Assembly: GCA_964392445.1 (NCBI GenBank)
Contig: CAYMPD010000023.1
Location: 1-16,486 of the forward strand
Source of the DNA: an uncultured archaeon
GTDB taxonomy: Archaea; Aenigmatarchaeota; Aenigmatarchaeia; CG10238-14
Direction: 5' to 3'
Length of the DNA stretch: 16,486 bases
In this document: positions 3,009-5,391 of the stretch, in pieces
How positions within the stretch are numbered: position 1 is the stretch's first letter
How the letters are laid out: the number at the start of each line of letters is the position of its first letter
The notes under the pieces: model-generated
Told to the model about the DNA's origin: nothing
Database searches by the model: none
The model's input: only the letters and a program-made list of their open reading frames with translations
Position numbers and translations under genes: made by a program

Positions 3009-4451
3009 TTATCCTTTAGCCACCGCAAGAGGAATCATTCTAGCAACAGGTTTAGATATCCCAGCACCATCAACACTACGAATAACTTCATCAACATCTT
3101 TGTAAGCACCTGGAGCTTCTTCACTCAGAACTTTTGGATGTGTGGCTCTAGTATAAATACCTTTTTCTTTCAATTCTTTCTTTACCGTCTCTCCCCAAAA
3201 TTTCTTCAAAGCACCAGTTCTAGACATAGTCCTGCCAGCACCATGACAAGTGGAATAAAATGTCTCTGATGCTTTATCAGTACCCACCAAAATATACGAA
3301 GCAGTTCCCATTGATCCTGCTATTAACACGGGTTGACCTACATCCCGATAAACATCTGGTACTAGTTTATGTCCCTTTGGTAAAGCACGGGTTGCACCTT
3401 TCCTGTGAACGTACAATTTTCTTTTCTTTCCATCTACTTCGTGCTCCTCAAGCTTACAGATGTTGTGGCAAATACCGTAAATACTATCCATTTCCATATC
3501 TTCCCAACTTCCTCCAAAAACCTGCTCAAAACTTTCACGAATCCAGTGAGTCATAACTAACCTGTTGGTAAAAGCGTAATTGACCGCACACTTCATCGCT
3601 TTGTAATAATCCTGACCTTCCTGACTGTTAGCGGGCGCACAGACTAACTGAGGATCTGGTAACCAGATGTTGTACTTTTTAGCGGCTTTTTTATGTTTTT
3701 TAAGATAATCTGATGCAACTTGATGACCAAAACCTCTTGAACCACAGTGCAACATTATAACCACTTGATTCTTTTTTTCTATTCCAAATGCTTTAGCAAC
3801 TTTTTCATCAAATACTCTGTCAATACTCTGAACTTCTAAGAAATGGTTGCCTGCACCTAATGTTCCTAACTGGGGTATACCTCTTTTCTTGGCTTTGTCT
3901 GAGATCTTGTTTGGGTCAGCACCTTCCATGCATCCATTTTCTTCATTTCTTTTCAAGTCTTCTTTAGTACCATAACCATTATCTACCGCCCATCTAGCGC
4001 CTTTAACCAGAACTTCATCTAGTTCATCTTTAGTTAGTTTTAATTTGCCTTTTGAACCAACACCAGAAGGAACATTCTTGAATAGTTTTGAAATTAATTC
4101 CTGTAATTTTGGTCTGATTTCTTTCTCGGTTAGATTGGTTCTAATCATTCTTATTCCGCAGTTGATATCGAAGCCGGTCATACCTGGTGATATAACACCT
4201 TCTTCTTGACCAAAAGCCCCCACGGCTCCCATTGGCAAACCATAACCATAATGTGCATCAGCGAGGGCAATTGCATTTTTAACAATTCCAGGCATACAAG
4301 CAACATTTGCTAACTGTCCTAAGGTATCCTCTTCCATGTCATTTAGTATTTTCTCTGAAGCATAAACTAAACCAGGGACTTTCATTCTTTCCCTCGCTGA
4401 AGTAGGTAATTCCCATTTAAAGTCATTAATTTTCTTTAATTTTTCTTTCAT
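3009..4451 (-). CDS. rtcB: RNA-splicing/repair ligase RtcB
   Basis: DAHYGYG, GFDINCG, GNHFLE, HCGSRG, HRKGAT, GSMG, STCHGAGR (guanylylated His motif) and EAPGAYK. 480 aa, no intein-sized insertion. Confidence 0.98.
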   Translation of the reverse strand: MKEKLKKINDFKWELPTSARERMKVPGLVYASEKILNDMEEDTLGQLANVACMPGIVKNAIALADAHYGYGLPMGAVGAFGQEEGVISPGMTGFDINCGIRMIRTNLTEKEIRPKLQELISKLFKNVPSGVGSKGKLKLTKDELDEVLVKGARWAVDNGYGTKEDLKRNEENGCMEGADPNKISDKAKKRGIPQLGTLGAGNHFLEVQSIDRVFDEKVAKAFGIEKKNQVVIMLHCGSRGFGHQVASDYLKKHKKAAKKYNIWLPDPQLVCAPANSQEGQDYYKAMKCAVNYAFTNRLVMTHWIRESFEQVFGGSWEDMEMDSIYGICHNICKLEEHEVDGKKRKLYVHRKGATRALPKGHKLVPDVYRDVGQPVLIAGSMGTASYILVGTDKASETFYSTCHGAGRTMSRTGALKKFWGETVKKELKEKGIYTRATHPKVLSEEAPGAYKDVDEVIRSVDGAGISKPVARMIPLAVAKG

Positions 4452-4454
4452 TTT

Positions 4455-4463
4455 CTCACCTCT
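4455..4463 (-). promoter_or_regulatory. Shine-Dalgarno site of rtcB (AGAGGTGAG)
   Basis: The minus strand reads AGAGGTGAG-AAA-ATG, matching the archaeal GGAGGTGA-type SD. Confidence 0.8.
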
Positions 4464-4524
4464 AATGCAACAGAATCAGACTGCCGCACCCATTTCCGAT
4501 GAAATCTATTCGGTGGGCACGAAC
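4464..4524 (-). promoter_or_regulatory. Structured RNA element in the rtcB leader: BHB/BHL-like hairpin plus a competing hairpin
   Basis: Minus strand GUUCGUGCCCA-CCGA-AUAGAUUUCA-UCGG-AAA-UGGGUGCGG-CAG. It folds into a 9-bp outer helix, a 3-nt bulge and a 4-bp central helix. 24 of 44 nt at 4481-4524 are G/C, whereas the other spacers are strongly AT-rich. The fold was done by hand and function is inferred. Confidence 0.55.
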
Positions 4525-4548
4525 TTAAGATAAATTAGTCAAGGAACT

Positions 4549-4971
4549 TTATATATCTAACACAACACTAACAACCCATCCCTCACCCGTCTTTTCAACC
4601 AAGTATTTATAATAAGTAACAGCCTTAGCAACAGTAAGAATTAACTCCTGACGGATCTCCTCGCCATGACACTCAATCCTAACCCTGAAACCATCATTTC
4701 TGTCCAACTCCAATACCCTAAACTTCTTAAAAAACATATTCTCGGTGTCTATAACCGTTAACAATTCCGACAACCAGTTGTAAATTAAATCTTCCTCTTC
4801 TTCCCCTTCCACTTCAAGCATTAAAACCTGTTTTTCCTCGACTTTATTAATATCACAAACTACCGAAAATAATGCTTCTCCAGAGTTTTCCACTAATTCC
4901 TCTAAGTTCTTACCATAAGCCTTGAACATAACATCCGACTTTATATCGTCAACTATTTCATATTTCTTCAT
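4549..4971 (-). CDS. Archease (RtcB activator)
   Basis: YEIVDD..SDV..KAYG..LEEL..N...ALF, EDLIYNWLSELL, KAVTY and C-terminal VLDI; directly upstream of rtcB; SD-like GAGGGGT before the ATG. Confidence 0.93.
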   Translation of the reverse strand: MKKYEIVDDIKSDVMFKAYGKNLEELVENSGEALFSVVCDINKVEEKQVLMLEVEGEEEEDLIYNWLSELLTVIDTENMFFKKFRVLELDRNDGFRVRIECHGEEIRQELILTVAKAVTYYKYLVEKTGEGWVVSVVLDI

Positions 4972-5094: not shown

Positions 5095-5391
5095 TTGCCA
5101 GTTTCTGAAGCACCTTATAAACGTACCTATAAACATACCAGTAGCAGAGGAAATGAACAGAAAGTAAGATGTGTTAAGTGTGGTAAAATGGTTCCTAAAT
5201 GGAAGACTTTTACTATCAGGACAGGAATGAGAATAACTGACCCAACTATCCTAAAACAGGTCGACAAAAGAATGATACATTTAATGAACCGAAAAGGGAG
5301 AGTATGTCCTAAATGTGCAAGATTCTATAATATCGTCGAAAAGGGAAAATCAAAGAGAAAGAAGGGAACTGGTAGAAATAAGAGAAGATGA
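5095..5391 (+). CDS. rps26e: 30S ribosomal protein eS26 (S26e), TTG start
   Basis: Basic 98-aa protein with RGxxxxVRCxxCGKxVPKxK, ITDP and CPKCA; 4 Cys at residues 26/29/71/74 fit the eS26 zinc site. SD GGGTGA lies at 5083-5088, just before the TTG. Confidence 0.82.
   Translation: MPVSEAPYKRTYKHTSSRGNEQKVRCVKCGKMVPKWKTFTIRTGMRITDPTILKQVDKRMIHLMNRKGRVCPKCARFYNIVEKGKSKRKKGTGRNKRR

What the first reader, a model, noticed from the sequence alone, without database searches (positions are those of the whole stretch)
4484..4524. Bulge-helix-bulge/loop-like splicing motif in the leader of the tRNA ligase gene rtcB: candidate autoregulatory RNA
Seen: the minus-strand spacer between archease and rtcB folds as outer helix UCGUGCCCA/UGGGUGCGG (4522-4514 with 4492-4484, three G-U pairs), a 3-nt bulge AAA (4495-4493) on the 3' strand, a 4-bp helix CCGA/UCGG, then AUA (4509-4507) and a short loop on the 5' strand. 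It is a GC-rich island (24/44) among AT-rich spacers, and a TATATAA lies 25 nt upstream of it (4555-4549). Known: archaeal splicing endonuclease EndA cuts after the second nt of 3-nt bulges flanking a 4-bp helix; (alpha-beta)2 and epsilon2 EndA types accept relaxed bulge-helix-loop forms; RtcB with archease ligates the products; an mRNA intron of this kind is known in crenarchaeal cbf5. Inference: cutting would remove a 14-nt intron (4507-4494, AGAUUUCAUCGGAA) and leave a stem closed by a 7-nt loop, CCGAAUA. The rtcB mRNA would then be a substrate of its own product and could report ligase capacity. The distal helix is imperfect (G-C offset by an extra A), so this is BHL-like rather than a strict BHB.
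Basis: partly seen in the sequence, partly recalled or inferred. Interest (0 to 1): 0.82.

Follow-up and report, generated by a model that had tools for sequence, protein, structure and literature searches.

The report
tRNA-intron-like leader of rtcB mRNA
In a group of very small archaea (Aenigmatarchaeota), the messenger RNA for the tRNA-joining enzyme RtcB begins with a conserved folded leader shaped like the cut site of a tRNA intron, so the tRNA-splicing enzymes may cut and rejoin the ligase's own message and tune its supply; no RNA data yet show the cut.

Summary
As a single sequence it is weak evidence: z is -2.2, and the same bulge-helix-loop shape occurs hundreds of times by chance in this genome. 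Comparison with relatives makes it significant.

I found the element in 59 places (57 distinct sequences): genomes of 10 Aenigmatarchaeota families plus 29 metagenome contigs. It always lies on the rtcB strand. In all but three or four copies it sits directly 5' of rtcB, usually behind a TATA-like box.

- All 13 pairs of hairpin 1 show compensatory changes.
- The inner helix is 4 bp in 52 of 57 sequences.
- The 3-nt bulge is AAA in 54 of 57.
- The loop varies from 4 to 51 nt and usually starts A-N-A.
- One lineage forms a perfect bulge-helix-bulge.
- A second, overlapping hairpin also covaries. It would fold at the new 5' end after a cut in the AAA bulge.

The genome's own tRNAs carry 12-15-nt introns with the same layout. 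Its single EndA carries the DPANN "L3" insert that has been linked to relaxed substrates.

Best reading (about 50%): an EndA/RtcB-processed leader that couples rtcB expression to splicing activity. Main rival: a protein-bound two-state leader that is never cut. I found no description in the literature searched or in this scan's notes on other DNA.

The parts
4548..4555 (-). TATA-like promoter box TATATAAA, overlapping the archease stop codon
   Evidence: At least 15 of 20 distinct homologous leaders have a TTTAAA/TATATAAA-type box about 20-27 nt before the conserved element. The promoter role is inferred.
4523..4526 (-). Probable transcription start region (AAGU); sequence conservation begins here
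   Evidence: Alignments A1 and A2 and spacing from the TATA box. Inferred; there are no RNA data.
4514..4522 (-). Segment A: 5' strand of the outer helix (UCGUGCCCA)
   Evidence: All 9 pairs show compensatory changes across 19 sequences.
4510..4513 (-). H: 5' strand of the 4-bp central helix (CCGA)
   Evidence: The helix is 4 bp in 52 of 57 sequences, with 22 different strand combinations.
4500..4509 (-). Apical loop AUAGAUUUCA; its first three nt, AUA (4509-4507), take the place of the 5' bulge
   Evidence: Loop length ranges from 4 to 51 nt in the family. The first three positions are 88/74/79% A, against 40% A in the rest of the loop.
4496..4499 (-). H': 3' strand of the 4-bp central helix (UCGG)
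4493..4495 (-). 3-nt bulge AAA; predicted EndA cut between 4494 and 4493
   Evidence: The bulge is AAA in 54 of 57 distinct sequences. The cut site follows from the pre-tRNA BHB register and is not shown.
4494..4507 (-). Hypothetical 14-nt intron AGAUUUCAUCGGAA
   Evidence: Derived from the BHB register. It lies within the 11-129-nt range of archaeal tRNA introns (PMC4090602). Most family members imply 10-11 nt. Not shown.
4481..4492 (-). Segment B (UGGGUGCGGCAG): 3' strand of the outer helix and, overlapping it, 5' strand of hairpin 2
   Evidence: It pairs either with segment A or with segment C.
4474..4480 (-). Loop of hairpin 2 (UCUGAUU)
4464..4473 (-). Segment C (CUGUUGCAUU): 3' strand of hairpin 2
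   Evidence: RNAalifold on a MAFFT alignment of 33 sequences gives 8 pairs, 6 of them with compensatory changes. The helix is 8-15 bp across the family.
4456..4460 (-). Shine-Dalgarno-like GGUGA
   Evidence: It is conserved in close relatives.
3009..4451 (-). rtcB (480 aa), the RNA 3'-phosphate ligase
   Evidence: Pfam PF01139, E = 1.4e-174.
4549..4971 (-). Archease (140 aa), the RtcB activator; upstream only in this genus
   Evidence: Pfam PF01951, E = 1.1e-33; synteny.

Best explanation
The region from about 4526 to 4452 (minus strand) is the conserved, structured 5' leader of the rtcB mRNA of Aenigmatarchaeota. It holds three segments. Segment A pairs with segment B to form a long stem. That stem carries, at its top, a copy of the pre-tRNA splice-site geometry: a 4-bp helix, a 3-nt AAA bulge on the 3' strand, and a short loop whose first three nt (A-N-A) stand where the 5' bulge would be. 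This is a bulge-helix-loop form of the bulge-helix-bulge motif.

I infer that the tRNA splicing endonuclease EndA recognises this motif. It would cut in the AAA bulge (AA|A, between 4494 and 4493) and probably also after the second loop nt. RtcB with archease would then rejoin the ends, which the A-B stem holds together. If ligation lags, segment C, which is complementary to the same part of B, takes B over. The short 5' piece is then released, leaving an mRNA that begins with a 5'-OH and hairpin B-C. The state of the leader would thus report the balance of endonuclease and ligase activity and feed it back on rtcB expression.

Shown: the conservation, both helices, the fixed geometry, the link to rtcB, and the fold of the cut product. 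Inferred: the promoter and transcription start, EndA cleavage, RtcB ligation, and the sign and size of any regulatory effect.
For: 1. Family and linkage. Covariance-model searches found the element in 10 GTDB families of the class. A pattern scan found it in 29 JGI metagenome contigs. That gives 59 copies, 57 of them distinct, and no genome has a second copy above chance level. Every significant hit is on the rtcB strand and, apart from four copies, ends within about 65 nt of the rtcB start. The exceptions are three copies with an inserted homing-endonuclease ORF and L075, which lies about 220 nt away.
2. Structure of hairpin 1. 98.7% of cells pair and 13 of 13 pairs have compensatory changes. 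0 of 500 shuffles reach this, and sliding the partners drops pairing to 19-48%.
3. Fixed BHB dimensions while the sequence changes. The central helix is 4 bp in 52 of 57 sequences, with 22 strand combinations. The bulge is always 3 nt, and AAA in 54 of 57. The outer helix is 8-16 bp. Length varies only in the apical part, from 4 to 51 nt.
4. Pseudo-symmetry. The first three loop nt are 88/74/79% A against 40% A in the rest of the loop, mirroring the AAA bulge.
5. L074 (another order) forms a strict hBHBh': 10-bp h, UGG bulge, 4-bp H, 5-bp h', AAA bulge. L080 forms a minimal one.
6. This genome's own tRNAs (Lys, Glu, Thr, Val, Gln, Tyr) have 12-44-nt introns with the same h-H4-loop-H'-B3-h layout. 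Their loops are as short as 8-11 nt and their 3' bulges are mostly A-N-A. The resident EndA must therefore handle such substrates.
7. EndA is a single 180-aa protein with both N and C domains. It has a 6-residue Lys-rich insert that the N. equitans alpha subunit shares and M. jannaschii lacks, and the insert is conserved in the class. It matches the DPANN 'L3 loop', which Kaneta et al. associate with alpha4 enzymes in lineages rich in disrupted tRNA genes (PMC5829648).
8. Hairpin B-C covaries independently. In the modelled 3' cleavage product it starts at nt 1-7 of the new 5' end, at nt 1-5 in 13 of the 15 leaders modelled. That would explain why C is kept.
9. Precedent. EndA excises a BHB intron from the 5' UTR of Haloferax HVO_1309, both in vivo and in vitro (PMC7714728).
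Against: - No RNA evidence exists for a cut, a junction or a 5'-OH end. None of the 29 metagenome matches has the spliced form, though these are probably DNA.
- In about 95% of sequences the 5' site is a loop, not a bulge. Alpha4 enzymes studied so far are narrow, and the breadth of L3-bearing alpha4 enzymes is inferred from tRNA gene content, not measured (PMC5829648).
- The leader lacks a tRNA body, which some enzymes need for bulge-helix-loop substrates (PMC6379350).
- The implied intron is 10-11 nt in most members, at or below the known minimum of 11 nt (PMC4090602).
- The absolute conservation of the AAA sequence is not a known EndA requirement and fits sequence-specific binding by another factor.
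- Modelled Shine-Dalgarno accessibility does not change consistently between precursor, spliced and cut forms, so the output of the proposed sensor is undefined.
- About three quarters of the genomes in the order lack the element, so it is dispensable.
Confidence: 0.5

Rival explanations
1. The leader is a two-state regulatory RNA that a sequence-specific factor reads and that is never cut. That factor (a protein or another RNA) would bind the AAA bulge, 4-bp helix and short loop, much as iron-responsive-element or coat-protein operator hairpins are bound. Binding would shift the balance between the A-B and B-C pairings and so change translation or stability of rtcB mRNA.
For: The AAA sequence is invariant in 54 of 57 sequences while almost everything else covaries, which is typical of base-specific recognition. 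The usual 6-7-nt loop on a 4-bp helix next to a bulge is a common protein-binding hairpin shape (my own knowledge). Two mutually exclusive helices are both kept by covariation. State I is only 2-16 kcal/mol better than state II.
Against: No candidate binding protein is known. The one known archaeal reader of a 3-nt bulge next to a 4-bp helix is EndA. State II does not consistently expose or hide the Shine-Dalgarno sequence. The apical part tolerates 4-51 nt, including inserted hairpins, which is unusual for a loop-reading protein. The strict BHB in L074 and the A-N-A symmetry have no reason to exist under this model.
Confidence: 0.3
2. The leader is only a 5'-terminal stabilising stem-loop that protects rtcB mRNA from 5' decay. 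On this view the resemblance to a splice site is incidental.
For: The hairpin starts within a few nt of the inferred transcription start and is stable, at -15.7 kcal/mol here and up to about -40 in relatives.
Against: A protective stem would not need an invariant 3-nt AAA bulge, a helix fixed at 4 bp, or a second overlapping helix kept by covariation. It would also not be restricted to one gene per genome.
Confidence: 0.08
3. The element is an independent small RNA gene, or a decaying tRNA-derived relic (for example a pre-tRNA-Tyr anticodon arm), that merely lies next to rtcB.
For: It has its own TATA-like box. In G002 the copy lies 1.25 kb from rtcB and is followed by a T6 run. The commonest apical form, CUGU|A(A/G)A...|AAA, equals the anticodon-loop and intron borders of this genome's tRNA-Tyr(GUA).
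Against: In 55 of 59 copies the Shine-Dalgarno sequence and rtcB start follow within about 65 nt, with no room for another promoter. In G002, L113 and L117 the separation comes from an inserted LAGLIDADG ORF. The G002 copy has lost its inner helix, which looks like decay after uncoupling from rtcB. ARAGORN and Rfam find no tRNA or known RNA. A relic would not covary across 10 families.
Confidence: 0.05
4. The element is a chance hairpin or the terminator of the archease gene.
For: The single-sequence statistics are weak (z = -2.2; z = -0.45 for the spacer; 376 chance descriptor matches in the genome). It lies just after archease in this genus.
Against: It is conserved with covariation in 57 distinct sequences. 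Archease is not upstream in most genera that carry it. No oligo-T tract follows it here.
Confidence: 0.01

Closest known systems
BHB intron in the 5' UTR of Haloferax volcanii HVO_1309 (Schwarz et al. 2020, PMC7714728)
   Same: It is a splice-endonuclease-type motif in the untranslated leader of a protein-coding mRNA, conserved among relatives. Processing appears to matter for expression.
   Different: There the motif is a canonical BHB with a 46-nt intron in a 192-nt UTR of a peptidase gene, and cleavage and the circular intron were shown by experiment. Here the motif is mostly bulge-helix-loop with a 10-14-nt 'intron', sits at the very 5' end, is paired with a competing second hairpin, and lies in the gene of the ligase itself. 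Nothing here is shown at the RNA level.
BHB intron in cbf5 mRNA of Crenarchaeota (Watanabe 2002 and Yokobori 2009, as cited in PMC7714728)
   Same: The tRNA-type splicing machinery acts on an mRNA.
   Different: That intron interrupts the coding region and must be removed to make the protein. This element is non-coding, and the spliced loop sequence is not conserved.
Short canonical-position tRNA introns of the same genome (tRNA-Lys CUU 12 nt, Glu UUC 13 nt, Thr/Val 15 nt)
   Same: The layout is identical: stem, 4-bp helix, short loop, 4-nt return strand, 3-nt A-rich bulge, stem. The register is the same, with the cut after the second bulge nt. The same EndA is presumably involved.
   Different: The leader has no tRNA body, its outer stem is 8-16 bp rather than 5 bp, and its bulge is invariably AAA.
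HAC1/XBP1 unconventional mRNA splicing in eukaryotes (IRE1 cut, RtcB or Trl1 ligation; PMC3400036, PMC4090602 and my own knowledge)
   Same: It is a regulatory mRNA cut-and-rejoin event that uses the tRNA ligase, outside tRNA maturation.
   Different: The nuclease (IRE1) and the motif (paired 7-nt loops) are different, the splicing changes the reading frame, and the target is not the ligase gene.
Bacterial rtcBA control by RtcR and sigma-54 (my own knowledge)
   Same: Expression of the RNA-repair ligase is tied to the state of cellular RNA ends.
   Different: That control works through a protein transcription activator that senses RNA fragments. Here the candidate is a cis-acting RNA in an archaeal mRNA leader.

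Membership tests
Archaeal bulge-helix-bulge (BHB/BHL) splice motif, EndA substrate | A 4-bp central helix with a 3-nt bulge on the 3' strand directly followed by a flanking helix | tested here: met
   Seen in the window. The helix is 4 bp in 52 of 57 sequences, the bulge is 3 nt in all parsed copies, and the outer helix is 8-16 bp. Covariation supports the pairing.
Archaeal bulge-helix-bulge (BHB/BHL) splice motif, EndA substrate | A second 3-nt bulge on the opposite strand followed by an inner helix h' (strict hBHBh') | tested here: not met
   The window has a 10-nt loop with no h'. Only L074 (5-bp h') and L080 (2-bp h') of the 57 meet this feature. The rest are the relaxed bulge-helix-loop form, so the element is filed as BHL-like and not as a strict BHB.
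Archaeal bulge-helix-bulge (BHB/BHL) splice motif, EndA substrate | Cleavage by EndA that leaves 2',3'-cyclic phosphate and 5'-OH ends | not testable with these tools
   This needs an enzyme assay or end-specific RNA sequencing.
Archaeal bulge-helix-bulge (BHB/BHL) splice motif, EndA substrate | A spliced junction or circular intron present in cellular RNA | not testable with these tools
None of the 29 metagenome matches shows the gap-0 form.
Archaeal bulge-helix-bulge (BHB/BHL) splice motif, EndA substrate | The host encodes an EndA able to accept relaxed motifs | tested here: inconclusive
   There is one EndA gene of 180 aa with N and C domains, alpha4-like. It carries the Nanoarchaeum-type insert, called L3 in PMC5829648. 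Its specificity has not been measured, but the genome's own tRNAs have 12-15-nt bulge-helix-loop-like introns.
mRNA 5'-UTR BHB intron (HVO_1309 type) | The motif lies between the transcription start and the start codon of a protein gene | tested here: inconclusive
   The position relative to the start codon is certain: hairpin 1 ends 32 nt and the leader's last paired segment 12 nt before the ATG. The transcription start is only inferred, from a conserved TATA-like box and from where conservation begins.
Kink-turn / K-loop (L7Ae-binding) | A 3-nt bulge followed 3' by tandem sheared G.A/A.G pairs | tested here: not met
   After the bulge comes U/C-G-R-G, forming Watson-Crick or wobble pairs that covary (A-U or G-C at pair 14-57). 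There are no G.A pairs.
Any Rfam 15 family; tRNA or tmRNA gene | A match to a curated covariance model or a tRNA detector | tested here: not met
   cmscan finds nothing at E <= 10 in 4452-4527. ARAGORN finds no gene in the window.
Two-state (alternative-pairing) regulatory leader | Two mutually exclusive helices sharing one strand, both maintained in evolution | tested here: met
   A-B: 9 of 9 pairs have compensatory changes. B-C: 6 of 8 pairs have compensatory changes on an alignment not fitted to the structure, and the helix is 8-15 bp. The shared part is 6-8 nt of B.

The most novel reading that the evidence does not exclude
The rtcB mRNA of Aenigmatarchaeota is a genuine substrate of the tRNA splicing endonuclease and needs its own product, RtcB, to be rejoined. 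The conserved competing hairpin B-C turns an unligated cut into an irreversible change of the mRNA's 5' end. Together these would form a self-contained sensor of the cell's cut-to-ligate balance that sets ligase synthesis. It would be the first autoregulatory use of BHB splicing and an archaeal counterpart of HAC1/XBP1-type regulated mRNA splicing.
Probability: 0.35. Interest if true: 0.88.

Novelty: new variant of a known kind. Interest (0 to 1): 0.74.

Why it matters
Only two kinds of tRNA-type introns in archaeal mRNAs are on record: cbf5 and the HVO_1309 5' UTR (PMC7714728). Neither has a known regulatory logic. Here a splice-site-like motif sits in the leader of the ligase gene of the same pathway. 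It is kept across at least 10 families, with the exact dimensions that EndA reads, and it comes with a built-in alternative hairpin.

If it is cut and rejoined, it would show that archaea use the EndA/RtcB pair for gene regulation as well as for RNA maturation. It would also give a direct, testable model for how a cell matches RNA-ligase supply to demand.

Even if it is not cut, it is a well-supported new cis-regulatory RNA family in DPANN archaea, where almost no RNA regulation is known. It also offers a compact natural substrate for testing the specificity of the L3-bearing alpha4 EndA enzymes.

Tried and rejected
- Known RNA families: cmscan finds no Rfam match at E <= 10 in the leader, and ARAGORN finds no tRNA or tmRNA.
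- K-turn/L7Ae site: rejected, because no G.A pairs lie next to the bulge.
- C/D-box sRNA: rejected. The CUGA in hairpin 2's loop occurs only in this genome, and there is no C box.
- Conserved uORF: the AUG at 4493-4491 (AAAUGGG) opens a 5-codon frame here, but the U is C or the G is A in other members (AAACGGG, AAAUAGG). Rejected.
- Archease terminator: rejected, because the element has its own promoter-like box and archease is elsewhere in most genera.
- Repeat or mobile element: no second copy above chance level in any genome.
- Shine-Dalgarno masking switch: the modelled unpaired probability of the SD/start window differs little and inconsistently between precursor, spliced and cut forms. 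Not supported.
- Intron-less (pre-spliced) versions upstream of rtcB in relatives that lack the element: none seen.
- Same or analogous leader outside the phylum. Among 80 rtcB loci (Woesearchaeota, Hydrothermarchaeales, Hermodarchaeota, Thermoplasmata, Methanococcoides, Micrarchaeota and others), model R3 hits only 3 loci. Two are known genus relatives and the third is an unnamed archaeon whose RtcB is 67% identical. Strict-BHB hits upstream of rtcB are at control level, 97 against 76.
- Spliced form in public contigs: a pattern allowing a 0-16-nt gap found 29 true members, all unspliced.
- Co-evolution of EndA insert with motif strictness: all EndAs examined carry the insert, including the genome with the strict BHB, so this is uninformative.
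- Origin from pre-tRNA-Tyr: the commonest apical form resembles tRNA-Tyr borders, but the window's own copy (CCGA, loop AUA...) does not. Left as a remark.
- Literature: three full-text searches found no paper describing a BHB or structured leader of rtcB.
- Scan notes: no look-alike on other DNA.
Full report
**1. Observation**

- The outer helix UCGUGCCCA (4522-4514) pairs with UGGGUGCGG (4492-4484) over 9 bp, with three G-U pairs.
- AAA (4495-4493) is a 3-nt bulge on the 3' strand.
- The inner helix is CCGA (4513-4510) with UCGG (4499-4496).
- The loop is the 10-nt AUAGAUUUCA.

This is the MFE fold of 4480-4526, at -15.7 kcal/mol and z = -2.2. The spacer as a whole is unremarkable, with z = -0.45. 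A simple descriptor (stem >=9 bp, 4-bp helix, 3-nt bulge, 5-22-nt loop) matches 376 times in this 1.2-Mb, 34.5% G+C genome. The single sequence therefore proves nothing. Rfam and ARAGORN find nothing here.

**2. The element is a conserved family tied to rtcB**

Upstream regions of rtcB in same-genus genomes showed the same block in two species. The loops differed, and one inner-helix pair had changed from A-U to G-C. I built three successive covariance models and searched them over the family, order, class and phylum samples. They found significant copies in 10 GTDB families.

A degenerate pattern scan of JGI metagenome contigs added 29 more copies and 3 obvious chance hits. In total there are 59 copies, 57 of them distinct.

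Every significant hit is on the rtcB strand. Apart from four copies, each ends within about 65 nt of the rtcB start. No genome has a second copy above chance level. Record titles of the nearest relatives name the group as Candidatus Aenigmatarchaeota.

Among 80 rtcB loci from other archaeal groups, the model hits only three loci. Two are known genus relatives and the third is an unnamed archaeon with 67% RtcB identity. Strict BHB motifs upstream of those genes are at control level. Within the order roughly a quarter of the genomes carry the element. Relatives without it have short AT-rich upstream regions and no intron-less version.

Most leaders have a TTTAAA/TATATAAA-type box about 20-27 nt before the point where conservation begins. 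The element therefore probably starts at the transcription start and forms the whole 5' UTR. This is an inference.

**3. Structure**

On the model-based alignment of 19 sequences, 98.7% of cells in the proposed pairs are standard pairs, and all 13 pairs of hairpin 1 have compensatory changes. No shuffle out of 500 reaches this. Sliding the partners by 1-3 columns drops pairing to 19-48%.

Across the 57 distinct sequences:
- The outer helix is 8-16 bp.
- The inner helix is exactly 4 bp in 52, with 22 different strand combinations.
- The bulge is AAA in 54. The three exceptions are poor parses, including the degenerate G002 copy.
- The apical loop is usually 6-7 nt but ranges from 4 to 51 nt, sometimes with its own inserted hairpin.
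- The first three loop positions are 88/74/79% A, against 40% A in the rest of the loop.

A second helix is also conserved. The 3' strand of the outer helix (segment B) can pair instead with a downstream segment C, which is GGUGCGGCAG (4490-4481) with CUGUUGCAUU (4473-4464) in the window. This B-C helix is 8-15 bp across the family. RNAalifold predicts it on a MAFFT alignment that was not fitted to any structure, and 6 of its 8 pairs have compensatory changes. A-B and B-C share 6-8 nt of B, so they compete.

In the full leader the A-B state is the MFE or close to it, and blocking A costs 2-16 kcal/mol.

**4. Why it looks like a splice site**

In a canonical archaeal pre-tRNA each strand reads, 5' to 3': flanking helix, 4 nt of the central helix, 3-nt bulge, flanking helix. 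The cut falls after the second bulge nt. This follows from the anticodon-intron pairing rule and the BHB definition (PMC4090602, PMC6379350). Hairpin 1 has this register on its 3' strand. On its 5' strand, the first three loop nt stand where the 5' bulge would be.

The same descriptor recovers this genome's real tRNA introns at position 37/38:
- tRNA-Lys(CUU), 12 nt
- tRNA-Glu(UUC), 13 nt
- tRNA-Thr and tRNA-Val, 15 nt
- tRNA-Gln, 17 nt
- tRNA-Tyr, 43-44 nt

Several of these have loops of only 8-11 nt and no real h' helix, and their 3' bulges are AGA, AUA, AAU, AUA, AUA, AAA and UGA. The leader (10-nt loop, implied 14-nt intron) therefore belongs to the same structural class as substrates the resident enzyme must already process.

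In another order, L074 forms a textbook hBHBh': GACAUGCCUG | CACU | UGG | UUUCC-UAA-GGAAA | AGUG | AAA | CAGGUAUGUC. L080 forms a minimal one.

The genome has one EndA gene of 180 aa with N- and C-terminal domains and no paralogue, so its build is alpha4-like. Its catalytic domain aligns best with the N. equitans alpha subunit. It shares a 6-residue Lys-rich insert between the catalytic Tyr and His that M. jannaschii lacks. The insert is conserved in the class. Kaneta et al. call this the L3 loop. They note alpha4 enzymes carrying it in several DPANN lineages with many disrupted tRNA genes (PMC5829648). That removes the automatic objection that alpha4 enzymes are narrow, but it does not measure specificity.

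**5. Mechanism proposed**

EndA binds hairpin 1 and cuts in the AAA bulge (AA|A), and probably also after the second loop nt. The A-B stem holds the pieces together, and RtcB with archease rejoins them, with or without the 10-14-nt piece. If ligation lags, segment C displaces the now untethered segment A.

In the modelled 3' product, the B-C hairpin starts at nt 1-7 of the new 5' end, at nt 1-5 in 13 of the 15 leaders modelled. This gives a reason for keeping C and for its exact position. The leader would then report the balance of endonuclease and ligase activity.

I could not define the output. Predicted Shine-Dalgarno accessibility barely changes, so any effect would more likely act through the 5'-end chemistry (triphosphate against hydroxyl) and mRNA stability. 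Every step after "the structure is conserved" is inference.

**6. Rivals**

The main rival is a two-state leader read by a sequence-specific factor and never cut. The invariant AAA and the bulge, short helix and hexaloop shape are typical of protein-binding hairpins. Against it stand the wide tolerance of apical insertions, the strict BHB in L074, the A-N-A symmetry, and the absence of any known reader other than EndA.

A plain stabilising stem, an independent sRNA or tRNA relic, and a chance hairpin or terminator are much less likely, for the reasons listed with each rival explanation.

**7. Known systems and novelty**

EndA-type introns in archaeal mRNAs are known from cbf5 and from the 5' UTR of Haloferax HVO_1309, where cleavage and the circular intron were shown (PMC7714728). 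Three full-text searches found no description of such a motif in rtcB. The scan's own notes hold no look-alike on other DNA.

I class the element as a new variant of a known kind. It is a relaxed BHB-type motif in an mRNA leader. What is new is its location in the ligase gene, its coupled alternative hairpin and its breadth of conservation.

**8. Limits**

The metagenome matches are all unspliced and are presumably DNA. E-values from my models are rough, and alignments made with a model lean towards its structure. The slid controls and the independent MAFFT/RNAalifold result mitigate this.

**9. Verdict**

The element is certainly a real, conserved, structured rtcB leader (about 95%). I put the chance that it is processed by EndA/RtcB at about 50%, and full autoregulation at about 35%.

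Noticed in passing
L035:254-1453 (-) in G002; L113:1916-3136 (+); L117:745-1605 (-): In three independent cases a 286-406-aa LAGLIDADG homing-endonuclease-like ORF (two of them with a C-terminal winged-helix domain) is inserted between the conserved leader and rtcB. In G002 the ORF's TAA stop directly abuts an ATT where rtcB's ATG should be, and that leader copy has lost its inner helix and is followed by T6. The leader/start-codon junction looks like a homing site.
   Followed up: partly
Relatives G040, G028, G009, G019, G016, G037 and others: In many relatives the rtcB match is split near residue 95-100 inside open frames of 840-1472 aa. This is consistent with inteins in RtcB.
   Followed up: no
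L209/L210 (G145:C5:48594-49673): In this genome EndA is two tandem units in one 413-aa open frame (an alpha'2-like fusion). Other members of the class have a single unit of 180-192 aa. All of them carry the Lys-rich insert.
   Followed up: partly
G000 contigs C4:59547-59641 and C18:11036-11129: ARAGORN calls two tRNAs with 4-nt 'anticodons' (gact, ggag) and places several introns at odd positions (32-36, 41). These are probably mis-parsed intron-bearing tRNAs and need a BHB-aware predictor.
   Followed up: no
window 4474-4471 and homologous positions (alignment A7): The 3' side of hairpin 2's loop and the start of its 3' strand (UUCUG) is nearly invariant across the family, although the rest of the loop varies. 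The reason is unknown.
   Followed up: no
L033 (G004), about 230 nt between archease and the leader: In one species of the genus, extra sequence separates archease from the leader, and a new TATA-like box (AATTTAA) keeps the usual spacing to the element. This shows that the leader travels with rtcB and not with archease.
   Followed up: partly
G000 contigs C39 and C40, 3750-3796: Two contigs hold identical sequence at identical coordinates (a GGU-rich repeat). This is probably a duplicated contig in the assembly.
   Followed up: no
window 5095-5391 (+): A 98-aa ORF has a weak, sub-threshold Pfam hit to ribosomal protein S26e (E = 8e-4, 20 bits against a cut-off of 27). Archaea are not known to have S26e, so this is probably spurious.
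   Followed up: no
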